Shown here: positions 10,954-33,569 of the stretch, piece by piece
How positions within the stretch are numbered: position 1 is the first letter of the stretch
How the letters are laid out: each line of letters begins with the position of its first letter
Assembly (NCBI GenBank): GCA_050298055.1
Contig: JBNKTL010000005.1
Location: 34,149 to 98,148, forward strand
Direction of reading: 5' to 3'
Origin: Spirochaetota bacterium
GTDB lineage: Bacteria; Spirochaetota; UBA4802; UBA5550
DNA length: 64,000 bases
The notes under the pieces: model-generated
The model's database searches: none
Seen by the model: the letters and a program-made list of their open reading frames with translations, nothing else
Told to the model about the DNA's origin: nothing
Made by a program: the position numbers and the translations under genes

Positions 10954-12771
10954 TCAGGCTTTGATCCTGAAATCACCCACTCTCTTCAGGAGCCCCTCCC
11001 GCTCTATCCGGTTCAGGAGGGGAAGCATATATTTTCTTGAGATATCAATGGCGTCTCTTGCGTCGGATATGGATATCTTCTCCATGGTGTCAAAAAGGTC
11101 CATGATCTTCTCTTTTGAGCTGTTGTAAACATCCCTGTGGTAAATGATATTTCCATCCAGGCTGATGAGAAAATCCATCCTGATGAGTTCCTTGATTGTT
11201 TTTTTTCGCAGGTCGTCCTTCTCCCTGCTCAGTTCAATCCCTTTTGTGCTGCTTTCCAGTATTTCATCAAGGAGTTTCCTGCTTCCCTCGGGGAGGGTTT
11301 CCTCGGTTATGGAATCTCCCGAAAAGTACCTGCCGTCCTTTTCAATGATTGTATGCTCTTTCATTGCCAGGGGCAGGAGCTCCTTGCAGATTTCGGGGGA
11401 GATACCCGATGAATCGGATACCTCCCTGAGGTTAAGGCCGACTTTTTCCTTTATGGATTCCACAAGTGATTTTATTGAATTTTCATAATAGGCCGAGTTA
11501 AGAAGAAAGTCCTTTATCTTTATTATTTTTTTCTCTTCTTCCAGTTTCTTAATAAGCGCATCCATACTCTTTTCTGAATCTGGAAGCATCTTCATAAGGC
11601 GCTCCCTTGTGAGACAGTTAAATACGGAGAGATTGAATTCCACAATTTCAGGTTTTGTGATGTTTTGTAAAATTGAAAGGTTTTTTCTGACGGCCTTTTT
11701 CAACTTTGAATTATAATCACAGAGGACCACTTTTCCCCCGCCGATGACCCTGTATCCCCCGGGGTTTGTTATGACAAACGGCTGGCTGGTGGTGAAATAC
11801 CATTCCCTGTCGATCTTTATCCTTACGAGGTAGATACTCTTTTCTTCAACCTCTTCTAGTATGATAAGTTTTCCTTTGACATCCGAGGTCCCTACCAGAA
11901 TTTCAATTCCCAGGTTGTTCTTGATCTCTTTGGACCTGTCAAGTATCTGGACCCTTGCCACAAACTCCCTGGACTCTATGAAAAAGTTTTTCTTGAAAAG
12001 GATCCATCCCCTTTTGATCTCGTTTACGGAAACACCGGATAGGTTCAGGGCCGTTCTCTGTGACGGGTTGCCTTCTTCTACTTCATTGAAGTGGGTCTCA
12101 ATCCGCTTTATTCTCGCGTCCTTTTTTATGGGGAGGATATGCACAGTATCGTCTTCGTTGAATATGCCGTTCTTCTGTGTCCCGGTTATAACAGTTCCGT
12201 GGCCCTTTGACGCGAAAACCCTGTCTATAAAGAGATAGGGCTTGTCCGTCTTTGTGATCTTTGAGAGCCGGCGGAGGTTTTCTACGATGAGGTTTTTCAA
12301 ATTCTCAATTCCTTCACCGGTTTTTGTCGATGTGGCGGTAATATCCGATCCCTCATAGAGGGTCCCGGAAAGCTTCTCCTCAACCTCGGCCTTCACGAAT
12401 TCCACCATCTCTTCATCTGCGAGATCAACCTTGTTCAGAACAACAATCATCCTCTCGATTCCCAGGATTTGTAAAACTCTGAAGTGGTCCTCTGTCTGGG
12501 GCATCCAGCCGTCATCTACCGCGATAACAAGAAGTGCAAGATCCACACCCCAGGCCCCCACGACCATGTTCCTGATAAAACGCTCATGGCCCGGAACATC
12601 GATGATACTCACTGTGCCAAACTTCGGATATACGATACTTGCAAAACCGATATCAATGGTCATCTCCCTCTCTTTTTCTTCGGGGAGCCTGTCCGTGTCA
12701 ATCCGGGTAAGTGAATATATCAGAGAGGTTTTGCCATGGTCGATGTGACCGGATGTTCCAACAATATACAT
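10954..12771 (-). CDS. selB: selenocysteine-specific translation elongation factor SelB
   Basis: N-terminal GTPase domain (GTSGHIDHGKTSL...DRLPEEKEREMTIDIGFA) followed by a long C-terminal extension with winged-helix-like domains, giving the 605 aa typical of SelB. Confidence 0.9.
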   Translation of the reverse strand: MYIVGTSGHIDHGKTSLIYSLTRIDTDRLPEEKEREMTIDIGFASIVYPKFGTVSIIDVPGHERFIRNMVVGAWGVDLALLVIAVDDGWMPQTEDHFRVLQILGIERMIVVLNKVDLADEEMVEFVKAEVEEKLSGTLYEGSDITATSTKTGEGIENLKNLIVENLRRLSKITKTDKPYLFIDRVFASKGHGTVITGTQKNGIFNEDDTVHILPIKKDARIKRIETHFNEVEEGNPSQRTALNLSGVSVNEIKRGWILFKKNFFIESREFVARVQILDRSKEIKNNLGIEILVGTSDVKGKLIILEEVEEKSIYLVRIKIDREWYFTTSQPFVITNPGGYRVIGGGKVVLCDYNSKLKKAVRKNLSILQNITKPEIVEFNLSVFNCLTRERLMKMLPDSEKSMDALIKKLEEEKKIIKIKDFLLNSAYYENSIKSLVESIKEKVGLNLREVSDSSGISPEICKELLPLAMKEHTIIEKDGRYFSGDSITEETLPEGSRKLLDEILESSTKGIELSREKDDLRKKTIKELIRMDFLISLDGNIIYHRDVYNSSKEKIMDLFDTMEKISISDARDAIDISRKYMLPLLNRIEREGLLKRVGDFRIKA

Positions 12772-13429: not shown

Positions 13430-14815
13430 CTACGTAAACCTCTCGAGAAGTTCGTCAATGACAGATGCAATGTAGGAGATATCATCATCAAAAACAGTCA
13501 TAAAATCAAGAGTATACCTGTCGTTTATAATAGAACCTACAACCGGAAGGTTCAGTGAGATCATCCTGTTGTAGAGGTCATCCGGTTTTACTCCGGGAAG
13601 AAGTAATTCTACACCGGCGCTTTCAACTTCCAGGGTGGGAAGCGTACCGCCCCCGTAAGTGCTCATGGTGCTGACCCTTTTTACCCGGTCCTTTTTCAGG
13701 GGATTTTTGATATTCCTCATGAGTCTTGTTATTTTCCCGGAAAGGGATTTCTTGTCCTGAAAAATTGTGCTCCAGAGGGGAAGGTCCTCATGTTCTCCGT
13801 TATCATACAAAAGGAGTGTTTCCTGGATGATATAGTAGGTGATCTTATCCACCCTGATCATCCGCATGAGGGGATTTTTCCTGAGTCGGACAATCAGCTC
13901 CTTTTTCCCGATAATAATGCCCGCCTGGCATCCTCCCAGAAGTTTGTCTCCGCTGAAACATACCAGGTCCGCGCCCTGGGAAAGTTCCTGACCCACTGTC
14001 TGTTCAAAATTTGCCGGAAGTTCGCTGCCGGTAACGAGGTTACCGCTTCCCAGGTCCCTGACCAGGAGAATATGGTCGGTTTTCAGCTCTGAGAGTTCTT
14101 TTAACGATGGAGACCGGGAAAACCCCTCTATTTTATAATTGGACCGGTGTGCGGAGAATATCATTGATGTGTTCTCTGTTATACTGTTTTTATAATCATC
14201 CAGTTCGGTGATATTTGTTGTTCCCGTTTCAACAAGATGTGCCCCGCTCTGGTTCATGATATCGGGTATCCTGAATCCGCCCCCTATCTGGATCAGTTCA
14301 CCCCGGGAAACCACTGCTTCTCTCCCCCGGGCAAATTCATTGAGGATCAGGAACACCGATGAAGCGTTGTTATTGACGATGAGGGCGTCTTCGGCAGATG
14401 TGAGGTTGCAGATAAGTTCCTCTGCGAACCCGCCTCTTTTGCCCCTTTTCCCAGTTGTGAGCTGGTATTCCAGGTTGCAGTATCCTGAAAGTGCTTCGGC
14501 CGCCCGGGAGAAGATCTCCTTCCCGAGGGGTGACCTTCCGAGATTGGTGTGGATTATGACACCGGTACAGTTTATGACCTTCTGGAGTTTGTGGAGTTTT
14601 TTGATTCTGCAGTTTTTCACTATTGCCGGAACAAGCTTCTCTACCGGTACATCAGCGCCGTCCTGGATTTTTTTCCTGAAAAGGTCAATGACTTTTCGGA
14701 CGATACCGGTTACAAGCGAATGTCCTATTTCAGGAATAAAAGCAGCTATTTCATCATTCTGCAGCAGCTTTTCCACCTGGGGGATGTTGCGTAGGTTGTT
14801 CTGTGTGTCGTTCAT
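13430..14815 (-). CDS. selA: L-seryl-tRNA(Sec) selenium transferase SelA
   Basis: 461 aa. The INCTGVIIHTNLGRSPLG motif around the PLP-lysine region is typical of SelA. It is co-located with selB and tRNA-Sec. Confidence 0.9.
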   Translation of the reverse strand: MNDTQNNLRNIPQVEKLLQNDEIAAFIPEIGHSLVTGIVRKVIDLFRKKIQDGADVPVEKLVPAIVKNCRIKKLHKLQKVINCTGVIIHTNLGRSPLGKEIFSRAAEALSGYCNLEYQLTTGKRGKRGGFAEELICNLTSAEDALIVNNNASSVFLILNEFARGREAVVSRGELIQIGGGFRIPDIMNQSGAHLVETGTTNITELDDYKNSITENTSMIFSAHRSNYKIEGFSRSPSLKELSELKTDHILLVRDLGSGNLVTGSELPANFEQTVGQELSQGADLVCFSGDKLLGGCQAGIIIGKKELIVRLRKNPLMRMIRVDKITYYIIQETLLLYDNGEHEDLPLWSTIFQDKKSLSGKITRLMRNIKNPLKKDRVKRVSTMSTYGGGTLPTLEVESAGVELLLPGVKPDDLYNRMISLNLPVVGSIINDRYTLDFMTVFDDDISYIASVIDELLERFT

Positions 14816-14840: not shown

Positions 14841-14930
14841 CGGAAGGGGCAGGAATCGAACCTGCCGCTACAATAAATTACAGCCAACGGTTTTGAAGAC
14901 CGCGGAGACCACCAGATCTCATCCTCTTCC
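14841..14930 (-). tRNA. selC: tRNA-Sec (selC), anticodon UCA
   Basis: Minus-strand sequence GGAAGAGGAT-GAGATCTGGTGGTCTC-CGCGGTCTTCAAAACCGTT-GGCTGTAATTTATTGTAGC-GGCAGGTTCGATTCCTGCC-CCTTCCG. It has a 6-bp D-stem with 4-nt loop, a CUUCAAA anticodon loop (UCA), a long variable arm, a GGTTCGATTCC T-arm and an 8-bp-type acceptor with one A:C mismatch. All of these are tRNA-Sec hallmarks, and the gene sits directly upstream of selA. Confidence 0.75.
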
Positions 14931-15081: not shown

Positions 15082-15114
15082 TATGTCCTCGCCGCCTTCG
15101 GCGGCGAGGACATA
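15082..15114. repeat. family H hairpin repeat copy 4 (TATGTCCTCGCCGCC-TTCG-GCGGCGAGGACATA)
   Basis: Perfect 14-15-bp stem with a UUCG loop. It carries a compensated C>T/G>A change relative to copies 1 and 3. It lies in the divergent region between selC and nuoE. Confidence 0.7.
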
Positions 15115-15237: not shown

Positions 15238-15768
15238 ATGGGAAAATGCACGGAATACGATGAAAAGGCGATTTGTGAGGATGTAAAGAGCATGCTCAAG
15301 AAGGTTGAGCAGAGCCGGAGCAGCCTTATCCCCCTTCTTCAGAATATCCAGGAAAAGTACTGCTTCCTCGCGCCGGAAGCCATTGAACTTATTGCGGATA
15401 AGCTCAACCTGAATACCTGCGAAGTATACGGTGTTGCTACCTTCTACAACCAGTTCAGGTTTCACCCTCCCGGGAAACACCAGGTCAAGGTCTGTATGGG
15501 GACCGCATGCCATGTAAAGGGCGGAGATATTATTCTTGAGAACTTTGAAAGGAAACTCGATATAAAGGTCGGCCAGACCACAGAGGACAGGGAGTTCAGC
15601 GTGGACAAGGTTGCCTGTATCGGGTGCTGCGCCCTTGCCCCTGCGGTGGTTATTGATGAGAAGATACATGCCTATATGTCTCCCAGCAAGGTTGAAGGGA
15701 TCTTTCTCGGCTACGAGATTGAGAAAGAGATGCAGGCCCGGAAAGAGAAAAACCGGCAGGACCAGTAG
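15238..15768 (+). CDS. NADH:quinone oxidoreductase subunit E-like [2Fe-2S] thioredoxin-fold protein (NuoE/HoxE/HndA family)
   Basis: 176 aa with the CxxxxC...CxxxC pattern (CMGTACHVKGG ... CIGCCALAP) of the NuoE family. Confidence 0.85.
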   Translation: MGKCTEYDEKAICEDVKSMLKKVEQSRSSLIPLLQNIQEKYCFLAPEAIELIADKLNLNTCEVYGVATFYNQFRFHPPGKHQVKVCMGTACHVKGGDIILENFERKLDIKVGQTTEDREFSVDKVACIGCCALAPAVVIDEKIHAYMSPSKVEGIFLGYEIEKEMQARKEKNRQDQ

Positions 15769-15783
15769 AGAAGGAAAAGAGTA

Positions 15784-17724
15784 TTGGAGCAGAGCAGGAT
15801 AGAGAGTATCGTTTCGGCTTACGATGAATTGAAAAAGAAAGCTGAAAGTTCCCCGGGGGAGAAGGGCAGAGAGGGTATTCCGAAAATTGTCATAGGGATG
15901 GCCACCTGCGGAAGGGCCGCCGGGGCTGACGAGATAGACCTGGTTTTCCGGGAAACACTTGAAGAGAGGAATGTGGAGGCTGATATTATCCATGTGGGAT
16001 GTATCGGCCACTGCTATGCCGAACCTATCGTCATCATAGAGAATCCCGGATTCCCGCCGATATTCTACTATAATGTGACTGCCGGAAAGGCAAAGATCCT
16101 TGTTAAGTCATTCCTTGAAAAAGGCGATCCCCACTTTGAATATGTCCTGGGAGCGATGGAAGAGAATGACCTGATACCGCCGGTGTCAGGGTTTCCCCGG
16201 TTCGGGAAGGAAAAGCGGATTGTCATGGAACTCTGTGGCCGCATCGATCCGGAGAACATCTATGACTATATCCGGCAGGGAGGATACGGCAGTATTCCGG
16301 AGATCTTTCGCAGGGAGCCCGCGGAGATAGTGGAAGAGGTGAAGAAGTCCCGGCTCAGGGGAAGGGGCGGCGCCGGTTTTCCCGCGGGGCTTAAGCTTGA
16401 AATGACCATGGCATCTCACGGAGATGAAAAGTATATCATATGCAATGCCGACGAAGGGGACCCCGGGGCCTATATGGACAGGACCATTATCGAAAGCAAT
16501 CCCCACCAGCTCATTGAGGGGATGCTCATATCCGCCTATGCTGTGGGCGCTTCAAAGGGCATTGTCTATGTCCGGCATGAGTACCCCCTTGCGGTGAGGA
16601 CCCTGGAAAAGGCTCTTGAAAGCGCCGAAGAAATCGGGCTCCTGGGAATGAACATTCTCGGTTCCGGTTTCGACTTTACACTGTCGGTTTTTCAGGGGTC
16701 CGGCGCTTTCGTCTGCGGAGAGGAAACGGCGCTGATCCGGTCCGTTGAAGGGAAAAGGGGGTGTCCCGTGAGCCGTCCCCCTTATCCTTCCGGGAAGGGA
16801 CTTTACGGCAGACCCACACTTATCAATAACGTAAAAACAATTTCAACACTGCCCGCGATTATTAAAAAGGGAAGCGGCTGGTTTTCAGGTACAGGCACGG
16901 AAGGGAGTCCCGGGACCGCAATCTTTTCCATTGTGGGTGATGTTCTTCACGCGGGGCTTGTGGAGATCCCCATGGGTGTCACCATACGCTCCCTTATCTT
17001 CGATATCTGCGGCGGCATCCCCAATCATAAAAAGTTCAAGGCGGTACAGATAGGCGGTCCCTCAGGGGGCTGTCTGCCGGAGGAGTGCCTGGATACACCC
17101 ATAGATTTCGATTCGCTTAAGGAAGCCGGGGCCATGATGGGCTCCGGCGGAATGGTGGTCATGGATGAGGACACATGCATGGTTGATGTGGCCCGGTACT
17201 TCCTTGAGTTTACCCAGAACGAATCGTGCGGCAAGTGTACCTTCTGCCGGATCGGGACAAAGCACCTTCTCTCCATCCTCGAAAGGATAACCCGCGGTGA
17301 AGGAAGGGAGGGGGACATCGAGCTCCTGGAAGAACTCAGCAGGGACATAAAGGAAGGTTCTCTCTGTAACCTGGGGAAGACAGCGCCAAACCCGGTCCTT
17401 ACCACAATTAAGTATTTCCGGGAGGAGTATGAGGCGCATATAAAGGAGAAGAAGTGTCCCTCGTTGAGCTGCCGGTCTCTCACGGCATTCTATATTGACC
17501 TCGATAAGTGCGCCAGGGGATGCGACGCGTGCGTGGGAAGCTGCCCGGTTGACTGCATCTTCACAACAAAGGGCAGGAAGAAGGGGATAGACCAGGAGAC
17601 ATGCGTGAAATGCGGTGAATGCGTCACTGCCTGTCCCGACGAATATGATGCGGTCATAAAGATATCCCCCGCCGGCCTGGTGCCGGTAGTGGAAAGACTT
17701 GAAGACGCGGGACATAAGAAATAG
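15784..17724 (+). CDS. NuoF-like NAD(H)-binding flavoprotein with N-terminal thioredoxin-like domain and C-terminal 2x[4Fe-4S] ferredoxin domain (HydB/HndC-type)
   Basis: GRGGAGFPAGLK and ICNADEGDPGAYMDR (FMN/NADH site), ESCGKCTFCRIG (N3 cluster), and C-terminal CxxCxxCxxxCP x2. Confidence 0.85.
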   Translation: MEQSRIESIVSAYDELKKKAESSPGEKGREGIPKIVIGMATCGRAAGADEIDLVFRETLEERNVEADIIHVGCIGHCYAEPIVIIENPGFPPIFYYNVTAGKAKILVKSFLEKGDPHFEYVLGAMEENDLIPPVSGFPRFGKEKRIVMELCGRIDPENIYDYIRQGGYGSIPEIFRREPAEIVEEVKKSRLRGRGGAGFPAGLKLEMTMASHGDEKYIICNADEGDPGAYMDRTIIESNPHQLIEGMLISAYAVGASKGIVYVRHEYPLAVRTLEKALESAEEIGLLGMNILGSGFDFTLSVFQGSGAFVCGEETALIRSVEGKRGCPVSRPPYPSGKGLYGRPTLINNVKTISTLPAIIKKGSGWFSGTGTEGSPGTAIFSIVGDVLHAGLVEIPMGVTIRSLIFDICGGIPNHKKFKAVQIGGPSGGCLPEECLDTPIDFDSLKEAGAMMGSGGMVVMDEDTCMVDVARYFLEFTQNESCGKCTFCRIGTKHLLSILERITRGEGREGDIELLEELSRDIKEGSLCNLGKTAPNPVLTTIKYFREEYEAHIKEKKCPSLSCRSLTAFYIDLDKCARGCDACVGSCPVDCIFTTKGRKKGIDQETCVKCGECVTACPDEYDAVIKISPAGLVPVVERLEDAGHKK

Positions 17725-17726
17725 TC

Positions 17727-18371
17727 ATGGTAAAGATATTTGTGGACAACAGGGAACTTGAAGCCGAAGCCGGGGCAAATCTGTTGAAGATATGTCTTGA
17801 TCATGACATCTATATCCCGAACCTCTGTTATGTCCAGGGGATGGAGGAGCCACCGGCATCCTGCAGGCTCTGCTTTGTGGATGTTGAAGGTGAAAAGGAA
17901 CCCCTTGCCGCCTGTACCCTGGAGGCCAGGGAAGGTCTCAGGGTGAACACGGACACTCCCCGGGTCAGGAAACTTCAGAAGGCGGCCCTGGAACTGATCA
18001 TGTCGACCCACCGGATCGACTGCGGAAACTGCCCCTCAAGCAAAAACTGTGTCCTGATAAAAATCAGCAAATTACTGAAGATACCCCTGAAACCGAAAAG
18101 GGTCGAAGGGATAAACCGTGAGAGGGAGGCGGAAGAGCATCCATTCCTTGTCTATGACCATACCAAATGTGTTATGTGCAGAAAATGCATCTACAGGTGC
18201 GGCCGGCTTTATGAACATCCCTATCTCACAGTAGGGGGAAGGGGCCTGGAGGCAGGTATCAGCTTTTTCGGTGAAACCGATCCGGAGAAGATCCCATGTA
18301 AAGACTGCCTGGCCTGTGTTGAGGAATGCCCGGTCTCGGCGCTTGTGCCCCGTGACCCCCTGACCTCCTAA
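17727..18371 (+). CDS. NuoG N-terminal-like FeS protein ([2Fe-2S] plus His-ligated and classical [4Fe-4S]; HoxU-like), without a catalytic domain
   Basis: Plant-type 2Fe-2S Cys spacing at the N-terminus, an HxxxCxxC...C motif and a CxxCxxCxxxCP motif. It ends after 214 aa. Confidence 0.7.
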   Translation: MVKIFVDNRELEAEAGANLLKICLDHDIYIPNLCYVQGMEEPPASCRLCFVDVEGEKEPLAACTLEAREGLRVNTDTPRVRKLQKAALELIMSTHRIDCGNCPSSKNCVLIKISKLLKIPLKPKRVEGINREREAEEHPFLVYDHTKCVMCRKCIYRCGRLYEHPYLTVGGRGLEAGISFFGETDPEKIPCKDCLACVEECPVSALVPRDPLTS

Positions 18372-28614: not shown

Positions 28615-29904
28615 ATGAATAGGGAAAAATCAGAAAGGTTATACACTGAAGCACTGAATTACATGCCGGCGGGTGTTAACTCCCCTGTCAGGGCTTTCCG
28701 GTCCGTGGGGGGCACACCGGTTTTCATGAAGAGCGGCAGCGGATCACATCTTGTTGATGAAGACGGCAATGAGTATATTGACTACTGCATGTCGTGGGGA
28801 CCCATGATCCTGGGGCACGCGGACAGGGACATTATTGAAGCGGTCAGGGAAGCGGCCCTGAAGGGGACCAGCTTTGGTACACCTAACAGGTATGAGGTTG
28901 AACTGTCAAAAGGGGTAACAGGGGCCTTCCCTTCCATGGAGAAGGTCCGGTTTGTCAATTCGGGAACAGAGGCGACCATGTCGGCCATAAGGCTTGCCCG
29001 GGGTTACACCGGCAGGGACAGGATCGTAAAGTTTGACGGCTGTTATCACGGCCATGCTGATTTTCTCCTCGTTGCCGCAGGTTCGGGACTTGCGACCTTC
29101 GGGGCCCCCGATTCAGCCGGTGTTACCGCGGACAATGCAAAGGACACACTTGTGGTCCCCTATAACGATATTGAAGGCCTGGAAAAACTTCTTGAACAAG
29201 AGGGAAAGAATACCGCGGCCATAATCCTTGAGCCTGTTCCCTGTAACTATGGTCTCATCCTTCCCAACAGAGGTTACCTGGAAAAACTGAGGGAACTCTG
29301 TGACAGATATGGGATCGTTCTGATATTCGATGAGGTCATAAACGGTTTCCGGCTCGCTTTGGGAGGTGCCCAGGAATACTATGGTGTAAAGGCTGACCTG
29401 ACGACCCTGGGGAAGATAATCGGTGGCGGCCTTCCCGTTGGCGCCTACGGGGGAAAAAAGGAGATCATGGACAAAATTGCCCCTGACGGTCCCGTGTACC
29501 AGGCAGGAACACTCTCGGGAAATCCTCTTGCAATGACGGCGGGAATTGTCACACTGAAAAAACTTGGCGGCGGAAATATTTATCCTGAACTGAAGAAGAA
29601 GGGTGAGTCTCTGAAGAAAAAGCTGGAACCTGTTTTGGACCGGTACAGGGGGAAGGTGCTCTACCAGGAGCTGGAATCAATATTTTCGCTCTATTTTACT
29701 GACCGGGAGGTCATTACCTCCGTGGACCAGGTGAGAGGGTGTGATATGAAGAAGTTCGGTGAGTTCCATTCCCGGATGCTTTCCCGGGGGATCTATCTCT
29801 CACCTTCAGGATATGAAGTGGGCTTTCTCTCAACTGTGCATACCGAGGAAGATCTTGACAGGACAGCAGTTGCAGTTGAGGAATCGTTAAAGGCTATTTT
29901 CTGA
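28615..29904 (+). CDS. hemL: glutamate-1-semialdehyde 2,1-aminomutase HemL
   Basis: Class-III aminotransferase with LIFDEVINGFRLALGGAQEYYGV and the PLP-lysine region GKIIGGGLPVGAYGG. 429 aa. Confidence 0.9.
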   Translation: MNREKSERLYTEALNYMPAGVNSPVRAFRSVGGTPVFMKSGSGSHLVDEDGNEYIDYCMSWGPMILGHADRDIIEAVREAALKGTSFGTPNRYEVELSKGVTGAFPSMEKVRFVNSGTEATMSAIRLARGYTGRDRIVKFDGCYHGHADFLLVAAGSGLATFGAPDSAGVTADNAKDTLVVPYNDIEGLEKLLEQEGKNTAAIILEPVPCNYGLILPNRGYLEKLRELCDRYGIVLIFDEVINGFRLALGGAQEYYGVKADLTTLGKIIGGGLPVGAYGGKKEIMDKIAPDGPVYQAGTLSGNPLAMTAGIVTLKKLGGGNIYPELKKKGESLKKKLEPVLDRYRGKVLYQELESIFSLYFTDREVITSVDQVRGCDMKKFGEFHSRMLSRGIYLSPSGYEVGFLSTVHTEEDLDRTAVAVEESLKAIF

Positions 29905-29976
29905 TTTTTATTTATGGTTTTTAACTTAATTCAATGTAAAAGATATTTTAAACATTTTAATAAAAGGAGTTTCAAT

Positions 29977-30465
29977 GTGAAAATAAGAAGTTGTATAATA
30001 GCAGTGATGGCAGTGACCTCGATGGCAGTTTTCGGATGCAAGGATAAAGCTCCGGACGGCAACCAGGGACTTCCCAAGGGTCATCCTGCTCTTGATATGC
30101 AGTCGCATCCCAAAATTGATACAAAATCAGAAATAAAAATTGCTCCGGGATCAATAGAGAAGGCCTCCGGAGGATACACTGTTTCGGAAATCTTTGGGAA
30201 AAAAGCCGCTCTGAACGGCAAGAGCGTAAAGGTCAGGGGGACGGTCACTAAATTCAATGCTAATATTATGAGCAGAAACTGGCTGCATCTGCAGGATGGA
30301 ACCGGTGGTCCCGGTGAAAACGACCTGACGGTCACAACAATCAGCAAGGCCGCAGTAGGCCAGAGAGTCCTCATTGAAGGAAAGCTTACTCTTGATAAGG
30401 ACTTTGGTGCCGGCTATAAGTATCCCGTTATCGTGGAAGGAGCTACCGTCACAGTAGAAAAGTAG
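29977..30465 (+). CDS. putative OB-fold lipoprotein (YgiW/BOF-like), hypothetical
   Basis: GTG start after an AAAGGAG Shine-Dalgarno (ATG-TGA directly precedes it), signal peptide with lipobox AVFGC. The C-terminal domain has the GKSVKVRGTVTKF...WLHLQDGTG...RVLIEGKL pattern reminiscent of BOF/YgiW OB-folds. Confidence 0.4.
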   Translation: MKIRSCIIAVMAVTSMAVFGCKDKAPDGNQGLPKGHPALDMQSHPKIDTKSEIKIAPGSIEKASGGYTVSEIFGKKAALNGKSVKVRGTVTKFNANIMSRNWLHLQDGTGGPGENDLTVTTISKAAVGQRVLIEGKLTLDKDFGAGYKYPVIVEGATVTVEK

Positions 30466-30626: not shown

Positions 30627-31073
30627 ATGAAACTTAAACTTAAAAATTTATCAATAGGTAAAATTAACGGAGTCTTAATTACTGCAGTTCTTTCGATCCT
30701 CGTTGTCTGGTCCATTCAGAAAGGAGTCCTGAGTTCAGCAAGCAGTGCGGAAGTGAAGAAACATGCATCGGTTTATTTTCCCGTTAAGTCCCACGATTTT
30801 GGAAAGGTTACCGGCGCTAAAACAGTCAGTCATAAATTTATTTTTTATAACAGGGGAGGAGATATTCTTCTGATAAAGAAGATCACCGCGGGATGAGGAT
30901 GCACTGCTGCTCTTTTAACAGAAAAGAGCATACCTGCCGGGGGCAGAGGAGAACTTAAGATAAGCCTGAATACAAAAGGGCACAGGGGCAGGATTTCAAG
31001 GACTATAAAAGTCTATACCAATGATCCGGAGAAACCTGTGATACGTATCAGTATATCGGCCCTGTCGGGATAA
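30627..31073 (+). CDS. DUF1573-family secreted protein with in-frame UGA at 30894..30896: candidate selenoprotein (Sec at residue 90)
   Basis: Signal peptide, then HDFGKV..G..V.H.F.F.N.G...L.I..I (the conserved DUF1573 N-terminal half). TGA falls where the first Cys of the family's SCGCT motif lies (here AG-U-GCT). The same reading frame continues for 58 more codons with conserved downstream family positions (P.G..GEL.I..NT.G..G.....I.VYTNDP). A 9-bp-stem hairpin (TGCTCTTTT-AACAG-AAAAGAGCA) begins 12 nt after the UGA, which is SECIS-like. selA, selB and selC are in the same window. Confidence 0.55.
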
Positions 31074-31125
31074 TCCAACAAACTGAATTTTAAAATTTCC
31101 CTTGTTATTTATAGGATCAAAGAGA

Positions 31126-31998
31126 ATGGATATACAACTGAAGGGTCCAAAACTCTCCAGGTTTAAAATAAAAACCCTTATCTATTTCAAAGCGCTGGCT
31201 GTCTTTTTGTTGACATTTCTCATTCTTTTTCTGCTCATAAAAGGGATTCGAAGCTTCTCAGAGTATCGAGAGTGGAAACACGCAGTTAAAACTATCCCAG
31301 AAAAAGAGATCAGAAAACTTGAAATGGTAAAGAAACAGTTCAGCTATGAACAGGTGATCCAGACATGGTATGTCCCCCCGTATAAGGAATGGTTGAAACC
31401 GATTAACTGGCTGATCTATTCGGAAAACTGCATATTATGTGGAAAACTCAATGTCATGAAGTTTGTGGGAATGATCCCGGGGGAGTGGACAGTTAAGGAT
31501 TTCAAAAAAAAACTGGAAGGATTTGATTTTGCAAATGAATGGGCACTTCACACGGGAAAGTATCCCATAACTGACAGGATTTTGTCTGATGTAAGCAGAA
31601 GGCTAACCGGGAACAGGTCCATTAAGTACAGGTGGTATTCCATTAAAAACCTGGATGAACTCATTTACCTGGCAAGGAGAGGGCACCATGTCTTTATCTA
31701 TACGCAGGTCTGGCTGGGGCCGTCAAAGAAATACCCGAAAGCAGTAAAGTATCTTGGAAAGAACTATTCACATGCGTGCACAATTACCGGAATTAAATCC
31801 TATGATCCCGTGGAGGATATCATCGAGTTTTCCGTAAATGAGACCCTGCCCGCCACGGAATTCACATACACACCGGTATACAGTAAGCTTAAAAAAAAGG
31901 ATGGATGTAATCTCTTTGACAGACAGAGTGTTCCCTATATAATTCCCTCGGGAGATTTAGCACGATCAGGATATGTTATCAGGGTTGAGGATGAGTAA
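31126..31998 (+). CDS. hypothetical membrane-anchored protein, possibly papain-like (C39-like) peptidase fold
   Basis: N-terminal TM helix. The Cys (ENCILCGKLNVMKFVG)...His (RRGHHVFIYTQVW)...Asp (YDPVEDII) order and spacing resemble C39-like peptidases, but this is weak hand alignment only. The start could be the TTG at 31102. Confidence 0.3.
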   Translation: MDIQLKGPKLSRFKIKTLIYFKALAVFLLTFLILFLLIKGIRSFSEYREWKHAVKTIPEKEIRKLEMVKKQFSYEQVIQTWYVPPYKEWLKPINWLIYSENCILCGKLNVMKFVGMIPGEWTVKDFKKKLEGFDFANEWALHTGKYPITDRILSDVSRRLTGNRSIKYRWYSIKNLDELIYLARRGHHVFIYTQVWLGPSKKYPKAVKYLGKNYSHACTITGIKSYDPVEDIIEFSVNETLPATEFTYTPVYSKLKKKDGCNLFDRQSVPYIIPSGDLARSGYVIRVEDE

Positions 31999-32018
31999 AG
32001 ACCCATAAAGGAGAAGTA

Positions 32019-33569
32019 ATGAGAAATCTGTTAATTATATTTACCGGTGTTATACTCTGTCTTGCTGCCTGCAAGAAAGGAGGAACAACTGCCGGGACTG
32101 CCGATTATAAAGATGCCACAGAAGCGGATCTGCCGCTGACACTAATTACCGAGACAAAGGTCATAAAGGGATATAATGAGAAGTCAACCCCCGATAAATA
32201 TGACAGGGTCGGATATAACAGGTATTATCTCAAGGGCCAGTCCAACAGCAGGATGCCCATACTGATCATCGTATCAGGTTATGTTGTGGATACCACATGG
32301 TTTAACAGGATGGCCAGGGACCTTGTTGCGCGAAAGAATGTTGAGGTCTGGACCATTAACAGGAGGGAGTCCCTCGTAGAGAACAGGGCGGCCCTTGATA
32401 AGGATATTAACGACTTCATGGCACATCCGGGAAAGAGGAAACAGCTTATCAGAAAGATGAACAGAACATCCAACTACCTCAAGGGGAAGGATGAGTATAT
32501 CAGGAACTGGGGCTTCACTGTCTTTATGAATGATATTAAGGCTGTTGTTAACGAAGCAAAAAAACTGAGCCGCAACATATTCCTGGGAGGATGGTCTGAC
32601 GGTGTGGAATACTGCATGATATATGCAAACTACAGGTTCACAAGCGGTTTCGGTTCCGGGGACCTCAGGGGACTGGTTTTCCTGGATGAAAATCCCGAGT
32701 GGGGAAATCTCTCGGGGAAGGAAGAGGAACTTAAGAAAAAGATAGAGAGGCAGATAAAACTAATGGAGGGAGGACATCTCTACATGAACTACTATCCCTC
32801 CCTTGCCGTGCATACCCTTGCCATGGAACTTGCTTCCAGGGCCCCCGGCGGGAAAAGTCCCCTGGCAGAGTATTTTAAACTCCCTGAAGCTGTAATGAAA
32901 TCCGGGATAACCAACCGGGGACTCATCGGATGGCTCTATGATAAGGATGTTACAAATTACGGTAAGAACGTCAGGGGGGGCTTTGCGTATCTTTTAAGAT
33001 CGGGTGACCTTGAGGTTCCTGAAATGCAGGACAATAACGGCCATGAAGAAAAGAGTGAAGAGAAAACTGACGGACCTGATAAAAATGAAAAAAACCCCGG
33101 AAAAGAGAAGAGTGAAAATACCGGCGGTCTCTGCAGGTGGAAATCGTTCAAAGAAACGGGGGAAGTTACGGATATTAACCTGATGATCAGCAGGTACAGG
33201 TCTACGGGAAATTACTGGGAATATTTTTATCCGCGAAAAGTACTCCTGGATTATTTCCAGATGGGCCTGTGTGACTTTGAGTGTCCCGGTTTCAATGTTT
33301 TTGCCAATAAGGAGAACAGTCTGCCTGTTTACTATATTTTAACCGGAACGAACAATGTGGGTAAAGGTATCCCTTCGGGACTGAAATGGTATTTGGAAAA
33401 AAGCAGTATCAAGATTGAACAGGTTGTTTTTAACAGGCTTTATGATTACGCCCATGGGGATATCTATTTCGCAGAGAATGCTCCGGCAAAGATTTACCGG
33501 CCTCTCTATGAGTGGCTGCTAAAAACTTCCGGTCTAAAGAATCCGGATAAAAAAGAGAGGAATAAATAA
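32019..33569 (+). CDS. lipoprotein, putative alpha/beta-hydrolase with low-complexity acidic/Lys-rich insert
   Basis: Lipobox LAAC at the signal peptide. A GGWSDG (GxSxG) nucleophile-elbow-like motif. A KSEEKTDGPDKNEKNPGKEKSEN low-complexity region. Confidence 0.45.
   Translation: MRNLLIIFTGVILCLAACKKGGTTAGTADYKDATEADLPLTLITETKVIKGYNEKSTPDKYDRVGYNRYYLKGQSNSRMPILIIVSGYVVDTTWFNRMARDLVARKNVEVWTINRRESLVENRAALDKDINDFMAHPGKRKQLIRKMNRTSNYLKGKDEYIRNWGFTVFMNDIKAVVNEAKKLSRNIFLGGWSDGVEYCMIYANYRFTSGFGSGDLRGLVFLDENPEWGNLSGKEEELKKKIERQIKLMEGGHLYMNYYPSLAVHTLAMELASRAPGGKSPLAEYFKLPEAVMKSGITNRGLIGWLYDKDVTNYGKNVRGGFAYLLRSGDLEVPEMQDNNGHEEKSEEKTDGPDKNEKNPGKEKSENTGGLCRWKSFKETGEVTDINLMISRYRSTGNYWEYFYPRKVLLDYFQMGLCDFECPGFNVFANKENSLPVYYILTGTNNVGKGIPSGLKWYLEKSSIKIEQVVFNRLYDYAHGDIYFAENAPAKIYRPLYEWLLKTSGLKNPDKKERNK

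What the first reader, a model, noticed from the sequence alone, without database searches (positions are those of the whole stretch)
30627..31073. DUF1573-family protein read through an in-frame UGA at the conserved CGCT cysteine: candidate new selenoprotein
The ORF track splits this gene at a TGA (30894..30896). Upstream is a textbook DUF1573 N-terminal half (HDFG..V..G..V.H.F.F.N.G...L.I). The TGA sits where the family's invariant SCGCT motif has its first Cys (here A-G-UGA-G-C-T). The same frame stays open for 58 more codons that keep conserved family positions (P.G..GEL.I..NT.G, VYTNDP) until a TAA at 31071. A 9-bp-stem hairpin (TGCTCTTTT AACAG AAAAGAGCA) starts 12 nt after the UGA, which is the spacing expected for a bacterial SECIS. 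selA, selB and tRNA-Sec are encoded 16 kb upstream in the same window, so the organism decodes UGA as Sec. I am not aware of DUF1573 being an established selenoprotein family, so this is either a novel Sec/Cys family pair or a recent pseudogene.
Basis: partly seen in the sequence, partly recalled or inferred. Interest (0 to 1): 0.75.

Follow-up and report, generated by a model that had tools for sequence, protein, structure and literature searches.

The report
Known-family DUF1573 selenoprotein gene, mis-truncated
This is a real selenocysteine-encoding gene that gene callers cut short at its UGA codon, but it belongs to a selenoprotein family (DUF1573 / OS_HP2, U-G-C motif) described in 2007, so it corrects an annotation and is not a discovery.

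Summary
ORF 30627..30896 ends at a TGA. The same frame runs 58 more codons to TAA 31071..31073. Pfam DUF1573 spans the TGA. A perfect 9-bp hairpin starts 12 nt after the TGA. selB, selA and tRNA-Sec lie 16-20 kb upstream.

The selenoprotein reading is strongly supported.
- 40 of 57 homologous loci carry TGA at exactly this column, and the other 17 carry Cys.
- Sec-forms have a hairpin at the same offset, and Cys-forms do not.
- A true syntenic ortholog (L065, 51% amino-acid identity) keeps the TGA.
- dN/dS is 0.26 downstream of the UGA and 0.21 in the domain upstream of it. This excludes a pseudogene.
- TGA is otherwise an ordinary stop codon (12 of 39 long ORFs).

The novelty claim fails. [quoted passage not shown] It traces to OS_HP2 of Zhang & Gladyshev 2007, and NCBIfam has a model for it (NF041425).

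What is particular to this gene:
- It is a short single-domain form (148 aa, against about 260 aa in relatives).
- It scores below the NCBIfam cutoff (87 against 100 bits).
- Its host is probably a spirochaete.

The protein's biochemical function remains unknown.

The parts
30627..30893 (+). Codons 1-89 of the selenoprotein gene: an N-terminal hydrophobic signal or anchor segment, then the first half of the DUF1573 domain (HDFG ... FYNRGG ... LLIKKITAG).
   Evidence: The product on record in the protein collection (P0001, 89 aa) stops here.
30894..30896 (+). In-frame UGA, read as selenocysteine (U90). It is the first position of the U-G-C motif, which corresponds to C-G-C in Cys homologs.
   Evidence: alignment. 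40 of 57 homologous loci have TGA at this column. Ortholog L065 keeps it.
30897..31073 (+). Codons 91-148 plus the TAA stop: the second half of the DUF1573 domain (GCTAA ... IPAGGRGE ... KVYTNDPE ...).
   Evidence: Against ortholog L065, dN/dS is 0.26 and amino-acid identity is 62%.
30908..30930 (+). Candidate bacterial SECIS hairpin: 5' arm 30908-30916, loop AACAG 30917-30921, 3' arm 30922-30930. It has 9 Watson-Crick pairs, and 20 nt lie between the UGA and the apical loop.
   Evidence: hairpin alone, -9.1 kcal/mol; rarity; 52 of 60 nt conserved in the ortholog, stem retained; equivalent hairpins in Sec-form homologs only.
14841..14930 (-). tRNA-Sec (selC), anticodon UCA.
   Evidence: ARAGORN; Rfam RF01852, 73 bits, gathering score 47.
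13430..14815 (-). selA, L-seryl-tRNA(Sec) selenium transferase.
   Evidence: TIGR00474, 505.5 bits, cutoff 267.9.
10954..12771 (-). selB, the Sec-specific elongation factor that binds the SECIS hairpin.
   Evidence: TIGR00475, 313.3 bits, cutoff 242.25.

Best explanation
The gene at 30627..31073 encodes a 148-residue selenoprotein with a single DUF1573 domain. It belongs to the known DUF1573 / OS_HP2 selenoprotein family.

Recoding (the elements are shown; the mechanism follows from the established bacterial Sec pathway). The UGA at 30894 is not a stop. SelB carrying Sec-tRNA(Sec) binds the hairpin at 30908-30930, which sits inside the coding sequence, and delivers selenocysteine to the ribosome. 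selB, selA and the tRNA-Sec gene are all in this window. Translation then continues to TAA 31071.

Protein (inferred). An N-terminal hydrophobic segment probably exports or anchors the protein outside the cytoplasm. The rest is an Ig-like (ASH/PapD-like) beta-sandwich. It carries a U-G-C motif in the turn between two strands. Most likely this motif is a selenol/thiol redox centre or a metal-binding centre, in which Sec replaces the first Cys of the family's C-G-C motif. The substrate is unknown.
For: Family and motif:
- PF07610 spans the UGA.
- NF041425, 'OS_HP2 family (seleno)protein', is the only NCBIfam hit.
- The reviews list DUF1573 with a UGC motif as a known selenoprotein.

Sec/Cys pairing:
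- 40 TGA against 17 Cys codons at this column in 57 loci, or 36 against 13 distinct sequences.
- Sec-form relatives stay open for 157-190 codons after their TGA.

SECIS:
- 33 of 36 distinct Sec-forms have a hairpin of at least 5 bp starting at nt 11-18 with its loop centred at nt 22-28. None of 13 Cys-forms does, including the closest relative L007.
- On a gapless alignment set by codon register, 77.8% of cells pair, against 30-50% when the partners are slid. Three pairs change on both sides.
- The window's hairpin meets three of the four published bSECIS criteria (for the criteria; for the values).

Ortholog L065 (same gene order, HemL 88% identical):
- TGA at the same codon.
- dN/dS of 0.21 before the UGA and 0.26 after it.
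- 52 of 60 nt identical across the hairpin region, against 65% for the whole gene.

Machinery and genetic code:
- selA, selB and tRNA-Sec are present.
- TGA ends 12 of 39 long ORFs, so there is no general reassignment.

Fold:
- The model of Cys homolog P0020 has pLDDT 88.9 and two seven-strand beta domains, with C-G-C in an inter-strand turn.
- Its best PDB matches are ASH/Ig-like domains and 2qsv.
Against: - There is no experimental evidence of selenium incorporation, here or (as far as I could find) anywhere in this family.
- The apical loop AACAG has its only G at the last position. This fails the bSECIS criterion that a G occupy one of the first two loop positions. The ortholog's loop fails it too.
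- The protein scores 87.2 bits on NF041425, below the curated cutoff of 100.
- RNAalifold found no consensus pairs on the MAFFT alignment of the Sec-forms.
- Folding energy alone did not separate Sec-forms from Cys-forms significantly (p=0.058).
- The covariation signal is modest (12 of 500 shuffles reach it), and the -1 slide scores about the same.
- The thresholds of the hairpin test were chosen after seeing the data, and the sequences are related to one another.
- No selD gene was looked for in the window.
- The structure model is of a homolog, not of this protein.
- The protein's function is inferred from motif analogy only.
Confidence: 0.9

Rival explanations
1. Recent pseudogene. A TGC or TGT Cys codon mutated to TGA, the gene is dead, and the downstream frame has not yet decayed.
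For: A single-base change from a Cys codon gives TGA. The closest relative by identity (L007, 46%) has Cys at this position. The only product on record is the 89-aa fragment.
Against: Ortholog L065 has diverged to 51% amino-acid and 65% nucleotide identity, yet it keeps the TGA and an intact frame. Its dN/dS downstream of the UGA is 0.26, the same as upstream. A perfect 9-bp hairpin at the SECIS position is unlikely by chance (about 0.0016) and is conserved in the ortholog. 39 other loci carry TGA at the same column.
Confidence: 0.03
2. Sequencing or assembly error that created a false TGA.
For: The sequence comes from metagenome-type assemblies, which do contain errors.
Against: The DNA is identical in three independent assemblies: a Logan assembly of SRR36185848, GCA_050292195.1 and GCA_050291225.1. 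The divergent ortholog in GCA_975964425.1 has the same TGA.
Confidence: 0.01
3. The UGA is read through or recoded without selenocysteine, for example by near-cognate insertion of Trp, Cys or Arg, or by a reassigned code.
For: Low-level UGA read-through occurs in bacteria. Selenium incorporation has not been measured.
Against: TGA terminates 12 of 39 long ORFs. The complete Sec decoding set, selA, selB and tRNA-Sec, is present. The UGA aligns specifically with a conserved Cys, which is the Sec/Cys signature. A hairpin at SECIS spacing is specific to the TGA forms.
Confidence: 0.03
4. Termination at the UGA is genuine, and the 89-residue half-domain is the functional product. The downstream frame would then be conserved for another reason, for example only as RNA.
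For: Gene callers report an 89-aa product. Decoding of Sec is never fully efficient, so some truncated product is expected anyway.
Against: The Pfam domain is split in half by the UGA. Protein-level constraint continues after it, with dN/dS of 0.26 and the motifs IPAGGRGE and VY(T/S)NDP conserved. A beta-sandwich cut at strand 3 or 4 would not be expected to fold (inference).
Confidence: 0.02

Closest known systems
DUF1573 domain-containing selenoprotein family. This is OS_HP2 of Zhang & Gladyshev 2007 (PMC1976440), NCBIfam NF041425, and appears in the selenoprotein tables of PMC9312934 and PMC13188914 with motif UGC.
   Same: The PF07610 domain. Sec at the first position of the U-G-C motif, aligned with the first Cys of C-G-C. 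A hairpin 10-13 nt after the UGA, with its apical loop around nt 20-28. An N-terminal signal-like segment. Co-occurrence with selA, selB and tRNA-Sec.
   Different: The window's protein has a single domain. It and its ortholog run only 58 and 61 codons past the UGA, against 157-190 in 30 of the 31 other complete Sec-form relatives (one has 93). It scores 87.2 bits, below the NF041425 cutoff of 100, while relatives L004 and L005 pass at 103.9 and 130.5. The host is probably a member of Spirochaetota, not a deltaproteobacterium. That placement is tentative and rests on named SelA and HemL hits.
Cys-type DUF1573 proteins, for example the 238-aa tandem-domain proteins of Ignavibacteria (P0020) and the single-domain metagenomic relative L007.
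   Same: The same fold and the same conserved positions: HDFG, N-x-G, S/G-C-G-C-T-A-A, P-G, and T-N-D-P. L007 is also single-domain and is the closest relative found outside the orthologs, at 46% identity.
   Different: They have Cys instead of Sec. They have no hairpin at the SECIS position (0 of 13).
Consensus bacterial SECIS (the bSECISearch model of Zhang & Gladyshev 2005, as summarised in PMC13188914 Fig. 2), with E. coli fdhF as the prototype.
   Same: A stem-loop inside the coding sequence immediately 3' of the UGA. Loop of 5 nt (allowed 3-9). Stem of 9 bp (allowed 4-16). 20 nt between the UGA and the loop (allowed 16-37). Free energy of -9.1 to -9.9 kcal/mol (required -7.5 or lower).
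   Different: There is no G in the first two loop positions. The loop is AACAG, and the ortholog's loop is AACGA (or AUAACGAAA if the top pair is open). The review notes that a subset of bacterial SECIS elements does not fit the model.
ASH / PapD-like Ig domains, including the HYDIN/CFA65/VesB-like domain PF22544 and PDB 2qsv from Porphyromonas gingivalis.
   Same: A seven-strand beta-sandwich fold. The Pfam PF22544 hit has E 2.4e-11. Foldseek gives 2qsv at E 4e-11 and ciliary ASH domains at E of about 1e-11.
   Different: The sequence identity is 10-17%. None of these matches came with a functional annotation that points to a redox or metal-binding site.

Membership tests
DUF1573 / OS_HP2 selenoprotein family | The DUF1573 domain (Pfam PF07610) scores above the gathering score. 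| tested here: met
   76.7 bits against a cutoff of 26.1. Residues 51-138 match profile positions 3-90 of 98.
DUF1573 / OS_HP2 selenoprotein family | An in-frame UGA at the first position of the U-G-C motif, aligned with the conserved first Cys of C-G-C. | tested here: met
   The window reads A-G-U-G-C-T-A-A, against the consensus S-C-G-C-T-A-A.
DUF1573 / OS_HP2 selenoprotein family | Both Sec-containing and Cys-containing homologs exist at the same column (a Sec/Cys pair). | tested here: met
   40 TGA and 17 TGC or TGT among 57 loci; the frames stay open after the TGA.
DUF1573 / OS_HP2 selenoprotein family | The score on NCBIfam NF041425 reaches the curated cutoff of 100 bits. This is an operational naming criterion, not a biological one. 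| tested here: not met
   87.2 bits. Sec-form relatives L004 (103.9) and L005 (130.5) pass. The Cys-form L006 (93.7) does not. The window's protein is therefore an outlying, divergent member of this sub-model.
Bacterial selenoprotein gene (general) | SECIS criterion (i): an apical loop of 3-9 nt and an upper stem of 4-16 bp. | tested here: met
   loop of 5 nt, stem of 9 bp. Criteria taken from PMC13188914.
Bacterial selenoprotein gene (general) | [quoted passage not shown] | tested here: not met
   The loop is AACAG (window 30917-30921), with G only at position 5. The ortholog L065 also fails. The review states that a subset of bacterial SECIS elements does not satisfy the model.
Bacterial selenoprotein gene (general) | SECIS criteria (iii) and (iv): 16-37 nt between the UGA and the apical loop, and a free energy of -7.5 kcal/mol or lower. 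| tested here: met
   20 nt of spacing. -9.1 kcal/mol for the hairpin alone and -9.9 for nt 10-45.
Bacterial selenoprotein gene (general) | The hairpin is conserved in Sec-form homologs and absent from Cys-form homologs. | tested here: met
   33 of 36 against 0 of 13, with thresholds chosen after seeing the data; 77.8% paired against 30-50% when slid, with modest covariation. RNAalifold found nothing on the MAFFT alignment.
Bacterial selenoprotein gene (general) | The genome encodes the Sec decoding machinery: selA, selB, selC (tRNA-Sec) and selD. | tested here: met
   selA, selB and tRNA-Sec are confirmed. selD was not looked for in the window and may lie elsewhere in the genome.
Bacterial selenoprotein gene (general) | The sequence downstream of the UGA is under protein-level purifying selection in orthologs. 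| tested here: met
   against L065, dN/dS is 0.26 after the UGA and 0.21 in the domain before it.
Bacterial selenoprotein gene (general) | Selenium is physically incorporated at the UGA position. | not testable with these tools
   This needs 75Se labelling or mass spectrometry.

The most novel reading that the evidence does not exclude
This would be a distinct short, single-domain branch of the DUF1573 selenoprotein family in a spirochaete-like lineage. [quoted passage not shown] The gene would also have arrived as part of a three-gene insertion (the selenoprotein plus 290-aa and 516-aa proteins with no known domains) beside the heme-biosynthesis operon, and the three would work together as one module.
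Probability: 0.12. Interest if true: 0.4.

Novelty: new member of a known kind. Interest (0 to 1): 0.22.

Why it matters
- The main value is to annotation. In the protein collection this gene is on record only as an 89-residue fragment, in three assemblies and again in the ortholog's assembly. The true product is a 148-residue selenoprotein.
- It adds a short single-domain member to a selenoprotein family that was defined in deltaproteobacterial symbionts. The host is probably a spirochaete.
- It gives another example of a bacterial SECIS that does not fit the consensus rule for a G in the loop.
- It does not open a new family, and it does not show what DUF1573 proteins do.

Tried and rejected
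- RNAalifold on a MAFFT alignment of 36 Sec-form segments predicted no pairs. The hairpins sit in slightly different registers in different sub-lineages, and the indel falls in the loop. I replaced this with an alignment-free positional test and a pair count on a gapless codon-register alignment.
- Folding energy of nt 10-45 did not separate Sec-forms from Cys-forms significantly (Mann-Whitney p=0.058). The z-score of the 76-nt segment was only -1.29. I did not rely on either.
- My first motif regex wrongly accepted P as the first residue, which put the Cys forms off by two codons. One search corrects this.
- Structure prediction of the window's own protein was not possible. I used the Cys homolog P0020 as a proxy. 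No coordinates were available, so I could not measure distances around the motif.
- A sequence search of the PDB found nothing at E up to 1.
- The fold search returned only generic ASH/Ig folds.
- A permissive Rfam scan over 30850-31000 gave only chance snoRNA hits.
- Neighbouring genes gave no functional lead. The downstream 290-aa and 516-aa proteins have no Pfam hit. There is no homology with the neighbours of L004. They recur only beside the ortholog in L065.
- A scan of the window for other ORFs split by an in-frame TGA returned only adjacent genes sharing a frame and spurious frames.
The taxonomy rests on named SelA and HemL hits and is tentative.
- Promoter-like matches upstream are not above the shuffle expectation.

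Full report
**1. Observation**

- The ORF starting at ATG 30627 ends at TGA 30894-30896. The same frame continues for 58 codons to TAA 31071-31073.
- With the UGA read as Cys, Pfam PF07610 (DUF1573) matches residues 51-138, which spans the UGA (76.7 bits, cutoff 26.1).
- In an alignment with 40 homologs, S-C-G-C-T-A-A is nearly invariant, and the UGA falls on its first Cys.
- The hairpin TGCTCTTTT-AACAG-AAAAGAGCA lies at 30908-30930. Eleven nt separate it from the UGA.
- Perfect 9-bp hairpins are rare here, with 8 distinct sites on the + strand of the 64-kb window. The chance that one starts in the right 8-nt slot after a given TGA is about 0.0016.
- tRNA-Sec (14841-14930, minus strand), selA (13430-14815, minus) and selB (10954-12771, minus) are confirmed. 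Both proteins score above their NCBIfam equivalog cutoffs.
- The DNA, including the TGA, is identical in three independent assemblies.

**2. Is the UGA decoded?**

Four independent lines of evidence say it is.

(a) *A Sec/Cys pair across homologs.* The genome and metagenome scans gave 57 classifiable loci, counting the window. Forty have TGA at exactly this column, always followed by G-C, and 17 have TGC or TGT. After removing duplicates the counts are 36 and 13. In the Sec-form relatives the frame stays open for 157-190 more codons.

(b) *A hairpin specific to the Sec-forms.* 33 of 36 distinct Sec-forms have a hairpin of at least 5 bp that starts at nt 11-18 (counting the U of UGA as 1), with its loop centred at nt 22-28. 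None of the 13 Cys-forms has one, including the closest relative L007. The stem sequences differ widely, for example GUGGCCC, GGUUUCU, GUCUCG, GUUGCCCUGU and UGCUCUUUU. I chose these thresholds after seeing the data and the sequences are related, so the Fisher p value of 2e-9 is descriptive only. On a gapless alignment of 29 Sec-forms fixed by codon register, a 7-bp helix pairs in 77.8% of cells, against 30-50% when the partners are slid by 1-3 columns. Three pairs change on both sides, and 12 of 500 shuffles reach the observed covariation score. This supports the hairpin but is modest. The -1 slide scores about the same because some lineages shifted register.

(c) *A true ortholog.* I found L065 (GCA_975964425.1) through the neighbouring hemL gene, which is 88% identical. 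It has the same gene order: hemL, a 154-aa gene, the DUF1573 gene, a 297-aa gene, a 517-aa gene, then ydjM. Its DUF1573 gene is only 51% identical in protein and 65% in DNA, yet it has TGA at the same codon 90 and an open frame for 61 further codons. By the Nei-Gojobori method, dN/dS is 0.21 for the domain before the UGA and 0.26 after it. The tail that would be untranslated if the UGA were a stop is therefore under the same protein-level constraint. The 60 nt starting at the UGA are 87% identical, making this the best-conserved DNA in the gene, and six contiguous stem pairs are retained.

(d) *Genetic code.* TGA ends 12 of 39 long ORFs in the window, so it is not generally reassigned.

**3. 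Caveats on the SECIS**

The review PMC13188914 gives four criteria for the consensus bacterial SECIS.
- The window's hairpin meets three: a loop of 5 nt and a stem of 9 bp, 20 nt of spacing, and -9.1 to -9.9 kcal/mol.
- It fails the fourth, a G in the first two loop positions. Its loop is AACAG. The ortholog fails too.
- The same review says that a subset of bacterial SECIS elements does not fit the model.
- RNAalifold on the MAFFT alignment found no pairs.
- Energy alone did not discriminate between Sec-forms and Cys-forms (p=0.058).
- Rfam has no matching family.
- A second hairpin at 30934-30946 arises from the P-(P/A)-G-G codons and also occurs in Cys-forms, so it is not Sec-specific.

**4. 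Comparison with what is known**

The family is already known.
- NCBIfam NF041425 is named 'OS_HP2 family (seleno)protein', and it is the only NCBIfam hit.
- Two reviews list 'DUF1573 domain-containing protein, PF07610, motif UGC' among established prokaryotic selenoproteins (PMC9312934; PMC13188914).
- Both cite Zhang & Gladyshev 2007. That paper's Table 2 lists OS_HP2 with two Sec sequences from the delta1 and delta4 symbionts of Olavius.

The window's gene is an atypical member in four ways.
- It scores 87.2 bits, below the curated cutoff of 100. Sec-form relatives L004 and L005 score 103.9 and 130.5.
- It and its ortholog have a single domain (148 and 151 aa), whereas nearly all other Sec-forms are two-domain proteins of about 250-270 aa.
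- All the named SelA relatives listed come from Spirochaetota MAGs (55-62% identity), apart from one labelled only 'bacterium'. The HemL hits are mixed between Spirochaetota and Deltaproteobacteria. A spirochaete host is therefore likely but not certain.
- The block made of the selenoprotein gene and the 290-aa and 516-aa genes is absent at this position in more distant relatives. L066 and L068 (HemL 75-76%) have radical-SAM/SPASM and siroheme-synthase genes there instead.

**5. How it most likely works**

- *Recoding.* SelB carrying Sec-tRNA(Sec) binds the hairpin in the coding sequence and inserts Sec at the UGA. All the sequence elements are shown here. The mechanism itself follows from the established bacterial Sec pathway and was not tested.
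- *Localisation (inferred).* The N-terminus (K-rich, then GVLITAVLSILVVWSI) looks like a signal peptide or membrane anchor, so the domain is probably outside the cytoplasm.
- *Fold.* A confident model of the Cys homolog P0020 (pLDDT 88.9) shows seven-strand beta-sandwich domains with C-G-C in a turn between strands. The fold search returns ASH/PapD-like Ig domains and 2qsv, an uncharacterised Porphyromonas protein. There is no relative in the PDB by sequence.
- *Function (inferred).* By analogy with other Sec/Cys motifs, the U-G-C turn is most likely a redox-active or metal-binding centre. Neither the partner nor the substrate is known, and the gene neighbourhood gives no lead.

**6. Verdict**

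This is a genuine selenoprotein gene that is on record only as a truncated fragment. It belongs to a known family, so it is a new, divergent, single-domain member of a known kind. Interest is low to modest. Its value lies in correcting the annotation and in the non-consensus SECIS loop.

Noticed in passing
window 30627-30896; L002 and L003 3001-3270; L065 6286-6555: The protein collection holds only the 89-residue product truncated at the UGA, both for this gene (three assemblies) and for its ortholog. The Sec read-through has been missed by the gene calls.
   Followed up: yes
window 30627-33569; L065 6286-9230; compare L066 5647-8188 and L068 5573-8217: The three-gene block (the DUF1573 selenoprotein plus 290-aa and 516-aa proteins with no Pfam domain) follows hemL and a 154-183-aa gene only in the window's lineage and in L065. 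Relatives with HemL 75-76% identical have radical-SAM/SPASM and siroheme-synthase genes there instead. This looks like a lineage-specific insertion beside the heme-biosynthesis operon.
   Followed up: partly
window 30934-30946: A second small hairpin (CTGCC-GGG-GGCAG) follows the SECIS candidate. It arises from the P-(P/A)-G-G codons of the conserved IPPGGEG motif and also occurs in Cys-form homologs, so it is not Sec-specific. Its loop lies more than 37 nt from the UGA.
   Followed up: partly
L051 70-345; L056 1501-1728; L052 809-1198; L049 461-778: Some relatives vary the motif. L051 has C-P-G-C and L056 has C-N-G-C, which are CxxC instead of CxC. L052 has C-G-T, so the second Cys is lost. 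The Cys-form L049 carries an in-frame TAA further downstream, which may mean a pseudogene or an error.
   Followed up: no
L008 and L009, nt 16-35 after their TGA at 1663: The Sec-forms closest to the window (43-44% identity) have SECIS stems GUCUCUUU/AAAGAGAU. These resemble the window's UGCUCUUUU/AAAAGAGCA, which suggests that the Sec codon and hairpin were inherited and not gained independently.
   Followed up: no
window 28615-29904 and upstream; L065 1-5290: A heme-biosynthesis gene cluster lies immediately upstream. In the syntenic L065 the Pfam labels are GlutR, porphobilinogen deaminase, HEM4, ALAD and hemL. The 183-aa gene at 29914-30465 is conserved next to hemL in all relatives examined and has no significant Pfam match.
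   Followed up: partly
window 15085-15110: A G+C-rich perfect inverted repeat (GTCCTCGCCGCC ...) sits between the tRNA-Sec gene and the divergent NuoE/NuoF-like genes at 15238-18371. It may be a terminator. I did not examine it.
   Followed up: no
window 30627-31073 compared with its neighbours, against L065: The selenoprotein is much more diverged from its ortholog (51% amino-acid identity overall, 24% in the signal or anchor segment) than its neighbours are (hemL 88%, the 290-aa gene 78%, the 516-aa gene 74%, the 183-aa gene 70%). The domain itself is still under purifying selection.
   Followed up: partly
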